Shown piece by piece: positions 763 to 5,128 of a DNA stretch of 5,128 bases (position 1 is its first letter; every line of letters starts with the position of its first letter). This stretch comes from a virus. Taxonomy: Duplodnaviria > Heunggongvirae > Uroviricota > Caudoviricetes. Location of the stretch: the IMG/VR virus record IMGVR_UViG_2728369553_000006, one strand, 5' to 3'. The notes under the pieces were generated by a model, which searched no databases, was not told where the DNA came from, and was given only the letters and a program-made list of their open reading frames with translations. The position numbers and the translations under genes are program-made.

Positions 763-1909
763 CAGAACGGGTCCTCCTGTACTCTGGTTTTTTTCTTTTT
801 CCGCGCGCCGGGGGCTTCGGGTTCAGGCAGATAAGCATCAGGTGGGCCGACACGGATTTCCGTCAGGGTGCCATTCTGGTCCTGAGTAAACGTGACTTCC
901 GAGACAAGCAGTTCGGTATTGTCGAAACCACAGACCGGATCGAAGACAATCACCCGCTGGTTGGGCTGCCACAGCGTACCGTTACCCTGTCGCCAGCCCT
1001 GCACCACATAGGTGGTTTCATCCGTCCGCGCCGCCCGTTGNNNNNNNNNNNNNNNNNNNNNNNNNNNNNNNNNNNNNNNNNNNNNNNNNNNNNNNNNNNN
1101 NNNNNNNNNNNNNNNNNNNNNNNNNNGCCTGCCCCCGTAGCCTGCCCTGTCTGCCTGATATACATCGGACGGTAACGGGCAATAAATGCATCCTCTGTGC
1201 GGGCCCGCAGCGCGGTGGTGGTGGCCTCACCGAAATCATCGTCGTTTCCGGCACGCTGCCCCGCCACCTGGTAAACTGAAAACCGCTCCCGGATACTCTT
1301 CTCCGTATCACAGGAAAGGATGTTTTCCCCAAGTACCAGCGCGGTATGTGCCCGCGTTGAGCCAATACCACCAATCACCAGCCTGCCGTGCGGGTCGTCA
1401 TAAGCCAGCGCCTGCTGCTGACCGAGTATTTTGTTGATCACCTCGATCACCGTTTCACCGTGATCAGGCTGGACATCCGGAATAACACCCGACGGCGCAT
1501 CGCTGTTCACCACCTCAATGCCGAAAGGCGCAGCAAGCGCCTGCGCAATCTGTACCAGCGATCGTCCGTTAAACTGTGTCGGTTCGGCTGCACAGTCAAT
1601 CAGGTCAGCAGTCAGACTACGTCCGGCAATACCGGTGCTGACCGAACGGGCATCGTAACGAACGGGGGTCGCCTCCACCCAGCCGGTGATCACCAGCTCA
1701 TCACCAATCAGCACTTCCACTTTTGAACCATTTTTAATGCGCGGCTGAAGCGTGGTGATACCCTCATCTCCCGGCCACTGGCGGGTGATCTCCACGCTGA
1801 AATCCNNNNNNNNNNNNNNNNNNNNNNNNNNNNNNNNNNNNNNNNNNNNNNNNNNNNNNNNNNNNNNNNNNNNNNNNNNNNNNNNNNNNNNNNNNNNNNN
1901 NNNNNNCAT
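762..1909 (-). CDS. Baseplate hub protein (Mu gp44 / P2 gpD 'late control D' family), interrupted by two N gaps; exact sequence and length uncertain
   Basis: ATG at 1909-1907 followed by an N run, then a long protein-like reading (DFSVEITRQWPGDEGITTLQPRIKNGSKVEVLIGDELVITGWVEA…RYRPMYIRQTGQATGAG) down to the second N run. After 1041-1126 the protein-like frame is the one of track ORF 762..1007 (…VIVFDPVCGFDNTELLVSEVTFTQDQNGTLTEIRVGPPDAYLPEPEAPGARKKKKTRVQEDPF), ending with a stop at 762-764. Total span of about 1.15 kb (~380 aa) is in the range I recall for Mu gp44. Confidence 0.6.
1041..1126. other. Run of 86 N (assembly gap or masked sequence) inside the hub gene
   Basis: Literal n characters in the sequence. 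The protein-like reading frame differs on the two sides, so the N length is not the true length modulo 3. Confidence 0.95.
1806..1906. other. Run of 101 N (assembly gap or masked sequence) covering the N-terminal ~34 codons of the hub gene
   Basis: Literal n characters. The hub frame continues in phase across it, so its length may be approximately correct. Confidence 0.95.
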
Positions 1910-3234
1910 TGCACTGGCACCTTCAGAGGGATTACCGGCACAAAGCCGGGATGCGTAATGGCATTACGCCGGATAATGTCCGCGTCACGCGCCGCGTTAT
2001 CAAACCAGGTCGCCGCCAGCACCAGCGCGGGTAAAACCTCATCCGGCGTGCGCTGAATGATCCGAGCAGACTGTTCAAGGCGCGTGTTGATATCCGCATT
2101 CAGATCTGCTTTCACCCGGCGCAGAGCCAGAAACAGCGCATCACTGGTTGTACGGGACAACTCCTTATCAATTGCCGTATTCAGTGTGTCGCGAATGTCG
2201 GTCAGTTCTTCCCACGTTGGCAGGTCAACCGTGTTTTTCACCGCCGGTGCATTGTTCAGCACCGGATGCGTGACGGCAGGCCAGCCGGAGCTCTGCGCGG
2301 GTGTTGTTGACTGCCCCACTGCGGCATTCTGCATCACCGCAGAAGTTGTTGGCGCAGGCAATCGGGTAACGGCATACGCCGCTTCGCTGATTGCAGTCGT
2401 ACGAAGGGTGCTGGCAACCATGTTACGCTGCTGCGTCGCTGTGGCGGTGGTTTTACTGTCCGTTTTCCAGACGCCGCGCGGTTGCAAATCGCTGCCGAGG
2501 CTGACACCAGAAAGCGTTTTGATCATGGTGACCAGGTCGCTGGCGTTACCATAAAGGCGTTTCCCGGTACGCCACATTTTCTGCACCTGCTCAACGAAAT
2601 TTTTGCCTGACGATGGCGGCGGCAGAAGTACCGAGATATCCCCCTGCAACAGCCTGGCGGCATCCGATACGGCAGAATCCACCACTTTCATCGCATCAGA
2701 AACATACCCCAGCATTATGCTGGCATTACCGATAACGTCGTTCTGCACGAAATCCGCCACACCATCGATACTGAAACCGCTGAAGCTGTCACTGATGCAG
2801 TCATCCAGTGCAGAACAGGATGACATCAGCGTCTGCGCCGTCGCCGCACCTGATGTGGGGTAAGAGAGTTCTCCTGCTTCGACAAACTTCAGGTCAAAGC
2901 GGACAATACGCCCTTCACTTTTCGATGTGCTGACCCGAACTTCCCCGTCAACACAGACTTTCAGCTCACCATATGTCGGGTGGACAAGCGTGCCGGGACC
3001 TGGTTTATTCAGCGCTTCAATCAGGCGATCGCGCTGGTCAAAGCAGTCATCTCCCACCACATAAGCCGTGATGGACGGGCGAAAAGTGATTTTCCCCAGG
3101 TCTTCGGTATAGGGTTTGTCGCGGTTCGGGTATTCATGTGTTTCCACACGGCGACCGGTTCCCGCACTTTCTTCTTCAACCTTAAACGGCACGCCGCGAA
3201 ATGACGCGTCCTGAAGCCTGTCTTTCCACGTCAT
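1906..3234 (-). CDS. DNA circularization protein N homolog (Mu gp43-like), ~442 aa
   Basis: N-terminus MTWKDRLQDASFRGVPFKVEEESAGTGRRVETHEYPNRDKPYTEDLG… matches what I recall of the conserved N-terminal domain of Mu protein N. Good SD (GGAG at 3240-3243, 5-nt spacer) before ATG 3234-3232. It is directly followed by the hub gene as in Mu. The in-frame codon at 1908-1906 is T-G-N (third base masked) and overlaps the hub ATG at 1909-1907, which I infer is a TGA stop in an ATGA coupling. The track's extension to 1708 reads through the N run and gives an implausible tail, so I end the gene at 1906. Confidence 0.7.
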
Positions 3235-3239
3235 ATATA

Positions 3240-3243
3240 CTCC
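3240..3243 (-). promoter_or_regulatory. Shine-Dalgarno sequence (GGAG) for the N-homolog gene
   Basis: Minus strand reads …ttttCGGAGtatatATG; GGAG lies 5 nt before the start codon. Confidence 0.55.
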
Positions 3244-3244
3244 G

Positions 3245-3276
3245 AAAATTAAAAAGCCACCTATTAGAAGGTGGCC
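3245..3276 (-). terminator. Rho-independent terminator downstream of the 176-aa moron ORF
   Basis: Plus strand 3256-3262 gccacct and 3269-3275 aggtggc form a 7-bp GC-rich stem with a 6-nt loop. On the minus strand the stem is followed immediately by TTTTTAATTTT (plus 3245-3255). It sits ~20 nt after the moron stop (3296-3298) and ends right at the RBS of the N gene. Confidence 0.6.
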
Positions 3277-3295
3277 TTGTAATGAATTTTATTAA

Positions 3296-3826
3296 TTAGC
3301 GAGTCAGAAACAACGAATCTTTATACTTTTGCTGTTGTTCATTTAAATACTTAGCTGTTTCATCGCTGGCAAATGGAAATATTACCGTATTTTTAGGCAT
3401 GGTAATTTCTTTTTTGTCCAGCGTCAGAGTAAACATAGGAACATACTGAGCAGAGTAACGCACCGCAGAAACGAGCTCTAGTTTAGACTCTTCAATAACA
3501 CTTAAATTATCCAGGCTAACTTTCTCTTCATCTTTTTTCTTTGACGCATTTAAAGTTTTTATTACTTTATTTAATTTCTCCTGAAAATCCTCCTTAAAGT
3601 TTTCAGGATTGCCGTCGACAACAAGAATCTGTTCACCCTGATTATCTGGAAAAATAATCTTTGCACTTATCAATTTATTTTCTTTATAAACATCACCAAG
3701 TTTTATGGCTCCTCCAGATAACTGAATAATATGTTCATCTTTAAAGGAGATGTTGCCAGAGATTATGAGAGATGAAAAAATAGCCGCTGCTCCAAGAATT
3801 ACACTTGCTGTGATATAGCCTTTCAT
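3296..3826 (-). CDS. Hypothetical protein, 176 aa, with N-terminal hydrophobic signal/anchor segment; AT-rich moron (cargo) gene of unknown function
   Basis: Intact ORF (ATG 3826-3824, TAA 3296-3298) with no competing ORF on either strand. N-terminus MKGYITASVILGAAAIFSSLIISGNISFK has a ~19-residue hydrophobic stretch; the rest is Lys/Glu/Asp/Asn-rich. Weak SD (AGGCG) upstream. Hand counts on sample lines give ~25-35% G+C here versus ~60%+ in the flanking tail genes. It has its own promoter-like sequence and terminator. I do not recognise the family. Confidence 0.7.
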   Translation of the reverse strand: MKGYITASVILGAAAIFSSLIISGNISFKDEHIIQLSGGAIKLGDVYKENKLISAKIIFPDNQGEQILVVDGNPENFKEDFQEKLNKVIKTLNASKKKDEEKVSLDNLSVIEESKLELVSAVRYSAQYVPMFTLTLDKKEITMPKNTVIFPFASDETAKYLNEQQQKYKDSLFLTR

Positions 3827-3861
3827 TTTTCGCCTATTAACATTTTTCTAAATGTGCATTA

Positions 3862-3889
3862 ATTCTATCACTCTATTTATGACTTACAA
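3862..3889 (-). promoter_or_regulatory. Candidate sigma70-type promoter for the moron ORF
   Basis: Minus strand reads TTGTAA (plus 3884-3889), a 16-nt spacer, then TAGAAT (plus 3862-3867), about 35 nt upstream of the ATG at 3826, within the AT-rich intergenic region after the tape-measure stop. Found by eye; -35 match is weak (4/6), -10 is 5/6. Confidence 0.3.
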
Positions 3890-3917
3890 CCAGCAATACC
3901 TGTGAGGGGAATCCTGG

Positions 3918-5128
3918 CTACCAAAATCGGGTATAGCCAACATCGTGATTTATATCAATGCCACTGGAGCGTGTTTCCGTAACCCGCATACCTGGTGGCA
4001 TATTTATAAATGATACCTTGATCTCACCATCAACTTTTGGCGCGGTAGCTTTATTAATCATGAAGGGATTCGGACCTGTGGCACCGGAGGCGTTGTTTGC
4101 CTGAGCCGGATCCACCTCCGGATAAGGAGTGTATCCCCGTGGCGGTATTCCCGTCCCATAAGCATCATAAGCACCCGCGCCCCACTGCGCCGAGTTAATG
4201 GCATCGACCGTGTCACCGGAACTGTCGGTAAACCATTCAATAATCGGCTTCAGCTTATCCCACATATCCTGAAACCACTTAACAACCGGTCCCCAGTTAT
4301 TGATCACCATCCCCAGCGGCGACCAGGCAAAAACCTTCTTCAGAAGTTCCCAGCCAGCCTCAAAATAAGGACTAATGGTTTCCCAGAGCTTCTTAAAATA
4401 AGGTCCGACAACATCCCAGTTAGTGATAATTAATCCCGCAGCCAGGGCAATCGCCGTCGCAATCATGCCAATCGGCGTCATCGACATGATCCTGCTGACG
4501 ATACTGATGGCACTGCCCACGCCCATCAATCCCAGTTTCAGAATCGCAAGACCGGCAGCAAGCCCGACGACGCCGCGAATAACCCGGGGATTTTCATCCG
4601 CAAACTTCGTGAATTTTTCCCCTAACTCCCCCAGCCATTGCGTGATATTTTTGACGTCACCAGAAAATGCGCCGCCAATAGCCGCAAGGCCGTTAGTTGC
4701 GGTCCCCGTCATTGCCTCCCACAGGTTGGACAGCGTACCAAGCTGGGCCTGAACACGTTTATTCAGGCTGGCCTGTTTATTCATCTTCTGCTGGATCTGA
4801 TCGTAACCATCCTTTCCTTTATCGATCAGAGCATTGACCACCTGAAGGGTTTCGGCATCATCACCAAATATTGCCTTAAGTACACCGGTTCGCTTAACGT
4901 CGGTCAGTTTTCGCAGCTTTGCCAGTTGCCTGAACATGTTATCAAGACCGCCAAAACTCCCTTTGCCGTCAGTAAAATCGAGCTGTACCCCGAGTTTCTG
5001 GCGGGCCATAACTTTATTAACGTCCCTGATTTTCTTAACGCTTAATCCGGACTGGATAACTTTTCGCAGGGCATTACCTGCCGACTCCCCGTTCATCCCC
5101 ATCTGATCCATCATGACGCTGATGGGGG
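3918..5128 (-). CDS. Tail tape measure protein, C-terminal ~400 aa (5' end of gene lies beyond the right edge of the window)
   Basis: Frame is open from the window edge (…PISVMMDQMG…) to TAG at 3918-3920. It contains a long Gly/Ala/Ile-rich hydrophobic segment (RVIRGVVGLAAGLAILKLGLMGVGSAISIVSRIMSMTPIGMIATAIALAAGLIITNW), followed by Trp residues at ~11-residue spacing (W233, W244, W255, W264, W274…), and an N-proximal charged, helix-like region. It lies upstream of the N-homolog gene as the tape measure does in Mu. Confidence 0.75.
   Translation of the reverse strand, partial: PISVMMDQMGMNGESAGNALRKVIQSGLSVKKIRDVNKVMARQKLGVQLDFTDGKGSFGGLDNMFRQLAKLRKLTDVKRTGVLKAIFGDDAETLQVVNALIDKGKDGYDQIQQKMNKQASLNKRVQAQLGTLSNLWEAMTGTATNGLAAIGGAFSGDVKNITQWLGELGEKFTKFADENPRVIRGVVGLAAGLAILKLGLMGVGSAISIVSRIMSMTPIGMIATAIALAAGLIITNWDVVGPYFKKLWETISPYFEAGWELLKKVFAWSPLGMVINNWGPVVKWFQDMWDKLKPIIEWFTDSSGDTVDAINSAQWGAGAYDAYGTGIPPRGYTPYPEVDPAQANNASGATGPNPFMINKATAPKVDGEIKVSFINMPPGMRVTETRSSGIDINHDVGYTRFW

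What the first reader, a model, noticed from the sequence alone, without database searches (positions are those of the whole stretch)
3296..3826. 176-aa membrane-anchored, Lys/Glu-rich protein of unknown family; candidate superinfection-exclusion, defence or conversion factor
The protein has one N-terminal hydrophobic segment of ~19 residues, which is long for a cleavable signal peptide h-region and more consistent with a signal anchor. There is no Cys, so it is not a lipoprotein. The remainder is a highly charged, probably helical domain. I cannot match it to a known family. By analogy, HK97 gp15 (as I recall) is a moron-encoded inner-membrane protein in a tail-gene region that blocks DNA injection by superinfecting phage. 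A small envelope protein encoded next to the tape measure is a plausible exclusion factor, but this is a hypothesis, not something the sequence proves.
Basis: inference. Interest (0 to 1): 0.7.

Follow-up and report, generated by a model that had tools for sequence, protein, structure and literature searches.

The report
Exported accessory protein in prophage tail
A small AT-rich cargo gene sits between the tape-measure and baseplate genes of an E. coli prophage; it encodes an uncharacterised membrane-tethered periplasmic protein that is a reasonable but untested candidate for blocking infection by other phages.

Summary
The ORF is real: 3296..3826 on the minus strand, 176 aa. It has an N-terminal hydrophobic helix, no Cys, and 34% GC against 50-56% in the flanks. 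It sits between the tape measure gene and a Mu gp43-like DNA-circularisation gene of an SfV/e14-like E. coli prophage.

It is dispensable cargo. Homology to related prophages stops exactly at the tape measure stop codon and resumes just before the next gene. In relatives the slot is empty (SfII) or holds unrelated genes (a bPH_1 protein, an OB-fold protein). 175 of 5426 complete E. coli genomes carry this insert.

The protein belongs to PHROG 5485, function unknown. It has no Pfam, NCBIfam, PADLOC or PDB match. The family has about 78 clusters at 50% identity, mostly in Enterobacterales, and lies in several different phage and island slots. One copy is next to SieB and one next to an Mrr nuclease.

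The cargo status is well supported. Superinfection exclusion is the best guess (about 0.4) but unproven.

The parts
3296..3826 (-). CDS of the 176-aa protein, including the TAA stop. It is identical to RefSeq WP_000679479.1 'hypothetical protein' and a member of PHROG 5485.
3755..3826 (-). Codons 1-24: the N-terminal export signal or signal-anchor helix (MKGYITASVILGAAAIFSSLIISG).
   Evidence: Hydrophobicity and flanking charges, conserved across 59 family members. Modelled as helix 2-23. Cleavage cannot be decided.
3299..3742 (-). Codons 29-176: the predicted periplasmic alpha/beta domain. Strands at 33-36, 39-42, 46-58, 67-72, 114-126 and 132-143; helices at 74-93 and 149-171. The conserved motif is G39-x-x-x-L43-G44-x-x-Y-x-E49, with Y124 and L134 also conserved.
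3862..3889 (-). Sigma-70-like promoter candidate, TTGTAA-16 nt-TAGAAT with an upstream TG, in the 91-nt spacer after the tape measure stop.
   Evidence: The number of such sites in the region is not above chance, and close homologues have shorter spacers with no detected site. This is a candidate only.
3831..3835 (-). Weak Shine-Dalgarno-like AGGCG; six bases separate its AGG core (3835-3833) from the ATG.
   Evidence: read directly from the sequence
3243..3278 (-). Intrinsic-terminator-like hairpin (10-bp stem) plus a U-tract. It lies 18 nt after the stop codon and 9 nt before the start of the next gene.
   Evidence: RNA fold gives -17.3 kcal/mol, z = -4.05. A terminator-like hairpin follows the gene in Leclercia, Edwardsiella and two other loci.
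3259..3917 (-). The variable cargo cassette, 659 bp at about 34% GC. Homology to prophages with other cargo or none ends at 3918 and resumes at 3258 or 3237.
3918..5128 (-). Flank: the 3' part of the tail tape measure gene, which runs off the window end.
1906..3234 (-). Flank: the Mu gp43-like DNA circularisation / baseplate hub gene. Its true end is hidden in the masked N run at 1806-1906.

Best explanation
The region is a single-gene cargo cassette (a 'moron') in the intergenic junction between the tape measure gene and the Mu gp43-like gene. The host is an SfV/e14-like contractile-tailed E. coli prophage.

The product is exported by its N-terminal hydrophobic helix. A folded alpha/beta domain of about 145 aa then sits in the periplasm, probably tethered to the inner membrane with the N terminus in the cytoplasm.

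I think it most likely acts at the envelope against incoming phages. It would interfere with the periplasmic or inner-membrane step of genome delivery, the step that involves the tape measure and tail tip. That is superinfection exclusion of the HK97 gp15 or P22 SieA type, carried out by an unrelated protein.

Shown here: cargo status, export signal, periplasmic location of the domain, family distribution and fold.
Inferred here: expression in the lysogen, retention of the anchor, and the exclusion activity and its target.
For: Cargo status:
- GC is 34% (GC3 30%) against 50-56% in the flanks. Homologues in other Enterobacterales show the same dip.
- Homology to relatives breaks exactly at the tape measure stop and resumes just before the next gene.
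- The slot is empty in phage SfII. SfV, SfI and SfIV match only the flank, and no isolated phage record encodes the protein.
- Other E. coli prophages hold unrelated genes in the slot, a bPH_1 protein and a reverse-strand OB-fold protein.
- 175 of 1049 E. coli genomes that have the flank carry this insert.

Mobility of the family. Homologues lie in:
- the same slot in Leclercia, Lonsdalea, Edwardsiella and others;
- between the Q antiterminator and the holin of a lambdoid Citrobacter prophage;
- an E217-like baseplate module and a Yersinia prophage;
- next to IS3 in a Pectobacterium island, and as a chromosomal orphan in Enterobacter;
- beside recombinases in integrative elements.

Envelope location:
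- The hydrophobic N terminus is conserved family-wide: median uncharged stretch 22 residues, median KD19 2.2, a basic N-side and an acidic C-side.
- A distant homologue in lytic Pseudomonas phage ventosus has a lipobox (LLTGC) in place of the helix. Support: Foldseek E 6e-6, probability 1.0; hhalign E 5e-5, probability 67%.

Hints of exclusion or defence:
- One homologue directly follows a SieB gene (PF14163, E 4e-30) and precedes a weak HEPN-like ORF.
- Another lies beside an Mrr-type restriction nuclease.

Signals: a terminator hairpin follows the gene and a promoter-like site precedes it.

Precedent: tail-operon morons and inner-membrane proteins that block injection (PMC3594210; PMC10883804).
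Against: - The promoter-like site is no better than chance, and homologues in the same slot have 35-70-nt spacers with no detected promoter. The gene may be transcribed only with the late tail operon.
- The junction carries a terminator even without cargo in SfII, so the terminator need not belong to the cassette.
- The links to SieB and Mrr are two of about 17 distinct contexts.
- Some members are chromosomal orphans, which also fits a host-fitness role.
Confidence: 0.4

Rival explanations
1. It is a lysogenic-conversion or host-fitness factor that acts on the host envelope and is not aimed at phages. Examples would be stress tolerance, resistance to colicins or other toxins, or interaction with an animal or plant host.
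For: - It is cargo with an exported product.
- Members survive as chromosomal orphans or island genes outside intact phages, in Enterobacter and Pectobacterium.
- One lies in the Q-to-holin slot. From my own knowledge, that slot often carries conversion genes in lambdoid phages.
- Morons are known to have diverse host-benefit roles (PMC3594210).
Against: - No similarity to any known virulence or conversion protein.
- A homologue exists in a strictly lytic Pseudomonas phage, where lysogenic conversion cannot apply.
- The hosts range widely: animal, plant, fish and environmental Enterobacterales.
Confidence: 0.22
2. It is an accessory function of the lytic cycle, made late together with the tail genes. 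Its periplasmic domain might tune lysis, or might modify the envelope of the infected cell so that progeny are not lost on debris or already infected cells. The second option resembles the T5 Llp 'lytic conversion' lipoprotein.
For: - Most copies sit inside late operons, in tail or baseplate modules or after Q.
- Upstream spacers are short and no promoter was detected in homologues.
- The lipoprotein homologue is in a lytic phage.
Against: - The gene is dispensable in the phage lineage: it is absent from SfV, SfI, SfII and SfIV.
- It lies outside the lysis cassette, which is complete elsewhere in the prophage.
- Members in non-phage islands and as chromosomal orphans have no late operon to ride on.
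Confidence: 0.2
3. It is a virion structural protein or a tail-assembly factor.
For: Only its position between the tape measure and baseplate genes.
Against: - It is present or absent among otherwise homologous prophages, and absent from the SfV-group phage genomes.
- Other genes replace it in the same slot.
- The exported periplasmic domain cannot meet tail assembly in the cytoplasm.
- The tail chaperone is already encoded upstream (PF10109).
- No structural PHROG or Pfam match.
Confidence: 0.03
4. It is a decaying or non-functional ORF, or AT-rich junk that happens to be open.
For: - Truncated copies exist in some genomes: 97-140-aa fragments and PHROG 34391.
- No function is known.
Against: - Full-length architecture is conserved down to about 20% identity in 78 clusters.
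- The co-evolution signal is strong enough to give a pLDDT 90.8 model.
- The sequence is identical or nearly so in 175 complete E. coli genomes.
Confidence: 0.02

Closest known systems
HK97 gp15 (YebO-like moron product; superinfection exclusion)
   Same: A single small gene inserted in a tail operon next to the tape measure gene and followed by a terminator. It has an N-terminal membrane segment, and it blocks DNA entry in a way that depends on the incoming phage's tail region.
   Different: gp15 is 62 aa, lies upstream of the tape measure gene, has no folded periplasmic domain and belongs to the YebO family. There is no detectable homology (hhalign probability 0.1%). The host phage is a siphovirus, not a contractile-tailed phage.
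P22 SieA
   Same: [quoted passage not shown]
   Different: No sequence match was found; the Pfam and PADLOC scans were empty. The genomic location differs, and P22 is a podovirus that uses ejection proteins rather than a tape measure.
PHROG 5485 (function unknown)
   Same: Full-length match, E 3.8e-108. Distant members of the family map to the same PHROG.
   Different: This is a sequence cluster only. It carries no functional or structural annotation.
Predicted lipoprotein CNR37_00111 (UniProt A0A2H4P829) of lytic Pseudomonas phage ventosus
   Same: The same fold and a weak but consistent sequence relationship. This includes the post-anchor motif (TIIHTRSAVVNVGEV against HIIQLSGGAIKLGDV) and the C-terminal helix.
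   Different: It has a lipobox (LLTGC) in place of the hydrophobic helix, is 144 aa long and 13-15% identical, and sits among early or middle genes of a 97-kb lytic phage. Its function is also unknown.
Phage lipoprotein or periplasmic exclusion factors: T5 Llp, Cor, T4 Imm and Sp
   Same: Small envelope-located phage proteins that stop superinfection at the receptor or injection step. Cor is described in PMC3594210; the others are from my own knowledge.
Rz-type i-spanin
   Same: Predicted N-in/C-out single-pass topology with a periplasmic domain of about 150 aa.
   Different: It is not in the lysis cassette, which is complete elsewhere in the prophage. The domain is alpha/beta rather than coiled coil. 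It has no Cys and no partner o-spanin gene.

Membership tests
Moron (independent cargo unit in a phage genome, as first defined for HK97) | Present or absent between otherwise homologous phage genomes, at an intergenic boundary | tested here: met
   Homology ends at the tape measure stop (3918) and resumes at 3258 or 3237. The slot is empty in SfII and holds other genes in L097 and L098.
Moron (independent cargo unit in a phage genome, as first defined for HK97) | Nucleotide composition differs from the neighbouring genes | tested here: met
   34% GC against 50-56% in the flanks. The same contrast appears in homologous loci.
Moron (independent cargo unit in a phage genome, as first defined for HK97) | Own promoter | tested here: inconclusive
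   A TTGTAA-16-TAGAAT site with TG lies at 3889-3862, but the scan finds no more sites than chance, and none in homologues with shorter spacers.
Moron (independent cargo unit in a phage genome, as first defined for HK97) | Own terminator | tested here: met
   Hairpin at 3278-3253 plus a U-tract, -17.3 kcal/mol, z = -4.05. Caveat: the junction also has a terminator in SfII, which lacks the gene.
Moron (independent cargo unit in a phage genome, as first defined for HK97) | Expressed from the repressed prophage | not testable with these tools
   Needs RNA-seq, 5' RACE or a reporter in a lysogen.
HK97 gp15 / YebO family | Sequence homology to gp15 or YebO | tested here: not met
   hhalign of the family profile against gp15 gives probability 0.1%. 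gp15 is 62 aa.
Superinfection exclusion proteins (functional class) | Reduces infection by incoming phage when expressed alone, without blocking adsorption | not testable with these tools
   Needs plating, adsorption and DNA-entry assays.
Known defence or exclusion families (PADLOC-DB, Pfam SieB and others) | Profile match | tested here: not met
   No PADLOC, Pfam or NCBIfam hit even at permissive E-values. No Pfam family is shared by the 59 members.
PHROG 5485 | Full-length profile match | tested here: met
   E 3.8e-108, residues 1-176 against profile positions 1-176.
Bacterial lipoprotein | Lipobox with an invariant Cys | tested here: not met
   The protein has no Cys. The distant ventosus homologue does have LLTGC.
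i-spanin (Rz-like) | Located in the lysis cassette with an o-spanin partner; coiled-coil periplasmic domain | tested here: not met
   Holin, endolysin and lysis protein genes lie about 13 kb upstream in L001. The domain is alpha/beta.
Tail structural or assembly protein | Conserved in all members of the tail-module lineage; match to a structural family | tested here: not met
   Absent from SfV, SfI, SfII and SfIV and from most related E. coli prophages. No structural family matches.

The most novel reading that the evidence does not exclude
The gene founds a new family of periplasmic, membrane-tethered superinfection-exclusion proteins, possibly with a new fold. On this reading, the family is carried next to tape measure genes because it targets the tape-measure and tail-tip step of inner-membrane penetration by contractile-tailed phages. 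The membrane tether is interchangeable: a transmembrane helix in Enterobacterales prophages and a lipid anchor in a lytic Pseudomonas phage.
Probability: 0.15. Interest if true: 0.7.

Novelty: new member of a known kind. Interest (0 to 1): 0.42.

Why it matters
Cargo genes in prophages are a main source of phage-resistance and host-fitness traits, and most of their products are uncharacterised.

This one is common (about 3% of complete E. coli genomes) and belongs to a family spread across Gammaproteobacteria, chiefly Enterobacterales. It gives a confident structural model with no solved relative, and it sits at a clean, swappable hotspot beside the tape measure gene.

If it blocks injection, it would add a new protein family, and perhaps a new target step, to the few understood exclusion mechanisms. 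Little is known about exclusion of contractile-tailed temperate phages in particular. It could also matter for choosing phages for therapy or typing in strains that carry SfV-like prophages.

If it does nothing to phages, it is simply one more hypothetical prophage envelope protein.

Tried and rejected
- Pfam, NCBIfam and PADLOC scans of the protein found nothing. A Pfam scan of 59 family members gave only scattered sub-threshold noise.
- PDB sequence searches with the single sequence and with the family profile found nothing.
- The AFDB Foldseek library was not available.
- tblastn against 50,697 isolated phage genomes gave no hit for the window protein or for P0042.
The species-representative genome scan gave only one locus. 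IMG/VR scans with distant members found nothing new.
- Homology to HK97 gp15 was tested and rejected.
- The spanin, lipoprotein and structural-protein readings were rejected (see the membership tests).
- I checked the 'plasmid' records that carry the gene as possible excised phage genomes. The one I inspected holds IS26 and only part of the prophage, so it gives no evidence of induction.
- Rfam found nothing in the window.
- A literature search for the RefSeq accession and for the gene's context found nothing.

Full report
**The observation**

The window has an ORF at 3296..3826 on the minus strand, with an ATG start, a TAA stop and 176 aa.

- Residues 3-28 carry no charge. The best 19-residue hydropathy mean is 2.11, with K2 before the segment and K29-D30-E31 after it.
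- There is no Cys. K is 11.9% and E 8.0%. The part after the hydrophobic segment has 22 basic and 24 acidic residues.
- Upstream is the 3' part of a tape measure gene, with its stop at 3918. Downstream is a Mu gp43-like 'DNA circularisation' gene starting at 3234, followed by gp44-like and gp45-like baseplate genes.

**Origin of the window**

The 851 bases around the ORF are 100% identical to many E. coli chromosomes. In strain ECONIH4 the gene is annotated as WP_000679479.1, 'hypothetical protein'. It lies in a complete-looking prophage with:

- an HK97-type head;
- a Mu-like contractile tail;
- e14-like tail-fibre inversion genes (ymfQ, stfP, pinE);
- lambdoid regulation, including an antitermination protein;
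- its own holin, endolysin and spanin-like lysis cassette.

The nearest isolated phages are the Shigella and E. coli SfV, SfI, SfII and SfIV group.

**It is cargo, not a tail gene**

- GC is 34% (GC3 30%) against 50-56% in the flanking genes.
- Homology to related prophages stops at the tape measure stop codon (3918). It resumes at 3258 or 3237, just before the next gene.
- In phage SfII the junction holds only a terminator.
- In other E. coli prophages whose tape-measure end is 90-93% identical and whose next gene is 94-99% identical, the slot holds something else. One holds a 125-aa bPH_1 protein. Another holds a 128-aa tRNA_anti-like OB-fold protein on the opposite strand.
- 1049 of 5426 complete E. 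coli genomes match the downstream flank, but only 175 carry this insert.
- No isolated phage in a collection of 50,697 genomes encodes the protein.

The tape measure / gp43 junction is therefore a cargo hotspot. The 659-bp cassette at 3259-3917 is one of its alternative occupants.

**Signals around the gene**

An intrinsic-terminator-like hairpin lies at 3278-3253, followed by a U-tract. It starts 18 nt after the stop codon. The RNA fold gives -17.3 kcal/mol, and none of 200 shuffles folded as well. A similar hairpin follows the gene in Leclercia, Edwardsiella, an unnamed relative and Citrobacter.

A promoter-like site (TTGTAA, 16 nt, TAGAAT, preceded by TG) lies in the 91-nt upstream spacer. 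The scan finds no more such sites than in shuffled sequence. Homologues in the same slot have 35-70-nt spacers with no detected site.

The classic layout of promoter, gene and terminator is thus only partly demonstrated. Expression in the lysogen remains an inference.

**The protein and its family**

Pfam, NCBIfam, PADLOC and PDB sequence searches return nothing. PHROGs places the protein in phrog_5485, of unknown function, over its full length.

- A word-indexed search found 53-58% identical homologues in Leclercia and Lelliottia.
- An exhaustive profile search of 1.84 billion cluster representatives found 78 with E of 0.001 or lower. Nearly all are 165-195 aa.
- Named sources are E. coli, Leclercia, Lelliottia, Edwardsiella, Mangrovibacter, Citrobacter, Lonsdalea, Serratia, Yersinia, Pectobacterium, Enterobacter, Pantoea, Pseudomonas and Alkanindiges. 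All are annotated as hypothetical.
- All share the hydrophobic N terminus (median uncharged stretch 22 residues) and a motif just after it, N-x6-G-x-V-x-L-G-x-V-Y-x-E. Y124 and L134 are also conserved.

With the 59-sequence alignment AlphaFold gives a confident model, pLDDT 90.8 and pTM 0.77. It has a helix at 2-23 and a short linker. Next come a beta hairpin, two longer strands and a 20-residue helix. A charged loop, two long strands and a final 23-residue helix complete it.

**Where the domain sits**

Foldseek against predicted viral structures gives one significant hit: a 144-aa protein of the lytic Pseudomonas syringae phage ventosus (E 6e-6, probability 1.0).

I located the gene in the phage record. 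It starts MKRLLFLGITALLLTGC, which is a lipoprotein signal. It continues with TIIHTRSAVVNVGEV, which echoes the family motif. A profile comparison supports the relationship (E 5e-5, probability 67%, covering residues 30-174).

The same domain is thus attached either to a hydrophobic helix or to a lipid anchor, which places it outside the cytoplasm.

Whether the E. coli helix stays as an anchor or is cleaved cannot be settled here:
- S23 is invariant in close homologues, and I-I-S is an acceptable signal-peptidase site.
- The following residue is often D or E, and no AxA site is conserved.
- One source labels a Leclercia homologue 'Secreted protein'.

**Genomic contexts of homologues**

| Context | Where |
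|---|---|
| Same tape measure / gp43 slot | Leclercia (53% identity), Lonsdalea (33%), Edwardsiella (41%), an unnamed relative (30%), an IMG/VR contig (59%) |
| Between Q antiterminator and holin | lambdoid Citrobacter prophage |
| Ahead of a baseplate wedge gene | E217-like tail module |
| Tail region | Yersinia rohdei prophage |
| Directly after a SieB gene (PF14163, E 4e-30), before a weak HEPN-like ORF and a multi-pass membrane protein | short metagenomic contig |
| Beside serine recombinases and a D5-like primase; in one case beside an Mrr-type restriction nuclease | integrative elements |
| Beside an IS3 transposase, in an island with a CbtA/CbeA toxin-antitoxin pair | Pectobacterium |
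| Lone chromosomal gene | Enterobacter asburiae |

No partner gene is conserved across these contexts. The gene is AT-poorer... rather, lower in GC than its surroundings in all the Enterobacterales loci.

This is how a self-contained, mobile accessory gene behaves.

**What it most likely does**

The domain is periplasmic and the gene is dispensable, so a role in cytoplasmic tail assembly or in the virion is very unlikely. A spanin role is also unlikely: the lysis cassette is complete elsewhere and the domain is not a coiled coil.

The remaining readings are all envelope functions. I favour superinfection exclusion at the injection step, at about 0.4, for four reasons:

- It is the best-documented job of small inner-membrane or periplasmic prophage proteins. 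Examples are HK97 gp15 (PMC3594210) and P22 SieA (PMC10883804).
- The gene repeatedly lies in tail modules, next to tape measure genes.
- Two homologues neighbour known exclusion or restriction genes.
- A lipoprotein version in a lytic phage recalls T5 Llp (my own knowledge).

Against this:
- There is no homology to any known exclusion protein. gp15 was tested directly, at probability 0.1%.
- There is no firm promoter.
- The defence-gene neighbours are a small minority of contexts.

The main rivals are a host-fitness or conversion role (about 0.22) and a late lytic-cycle envelope role (about 0.2).

I looked for a link between presence of the gene and a particular tape measure allele. Prophages with other cargo or none have 87-93% identical tape-measure ends. 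No such link is visible, which neither supports nor refutes a tape measure target.

**Comparison with what is known, and novelty**

As a kind of element it is ordinary: a tail-operon cargo gene of the type first described in HK97. As a protein it is a member of an unnamed family (PHROG 5485). That family has no curated domain model, no solved relative and no assigned function.

I file it as a new member of a known kind. It would rise in interest only if an exclusion phenotype and a target were shown.

**Caveats**

- The window contains two masked N runs, at 1041-1126 and 1806-1906. They make the downstream ORFs look longer or split, and they do not keep register with the reference. They do not touch the finding.
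- The context sample is small and was not drawn at random.
- No topology predictor or full AlphaFold-database search was available.

Noticed in passing
window 3238-3917, compared with L097 1586-2078, L098 1584-2029 and L006 2969-3004: The junction between the tape measure and gp43-like genes of E. coli SfV-like prophages is a cargo hotspot. It can be empty apart from a terminator (SfII), or hold this gene, a 125-aa bPH_1 (PF08000) protein, or a 128-aa tRNA_anti-like OB-fold protein on the opposite strand.
   Followed up: partly
window 1041-1126 and 1806-1906: There are two masked N runs, of 86 and 101 bases. They remove the true stop of the gp43-like gene and make the gp44-like hub gene look split (ORFs 950-1909 and 762-1007). 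The window is 68 bases longer than the identical reference prophage across this stretch, so the masks do not preserve length.
   Followed up: partly
L090 158-2516: A short metagenomic contig carries four small genes in a row: a SieB-family gene (PF14163, E 4e-30), a homologue of the finding, a 169-aa ORF with an RRNEIVH motif and a weak HEPN_RiboL-PSP match (below threshold), and a 170-aa multi-pass membrane protein. It looks like a small exclusion or defence cluster.
   Followed up: partly
L002 12013-13808 (Leclercia prophage): Two extra ORFs with no Pfam match (503 aa and 94 aa) sit between the gp43-like and gp44-like genes. E. coli has none there, so this looks like a second cargo slot in the same tail module.
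   Followed up: no
L112 6637-7330 (Lonsdalea prophage): Two further small ORFs follow the homologue in the same slot: 119 aa (phrog_4293, unknown function) and 83 aa. The hotspot can therefore stack several cargo genes.
   Followed up: no
L117 1995-2429 (Pseudomonas phage ventosus, MG018930 51995-52429): The record annotates this 144-aa protein as hypothetical. It has a clear lipobox (LLTGC) and is a distant structural and sequence relative of the finding. It lies among early or middle genes of a lytic 97-kb phage.
   Followed up: partly
L089 1104-3254 and L101 8341-10071: In small integrative elements with a D5-like primase (DUF5906), distant homologues lie convergent with a 576-716-aa protein that matches the TMP_3 tape measure domain. 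What such a protein does in an element with no visible tail genes is unclear.
   Followed up: no
L118 (CP088862.1, a 35.4-kb 'plasmid'): Five records deposited as non-mobilisable E. coli plasmids carry the gene. The one I inspected is a circular piece of the prophage that includes IS26. It is probably an IS26-mediated circle or an assembly artefact, not an excised phage.
   Followed up: partly
window 3823-3843: A six-codon mini-ORF (ATG TTA ATA GGC GAA AAA TGA) overlaps the start codon of the gene in ATGA fashion. It is probably meaningless.
   Followed up: no
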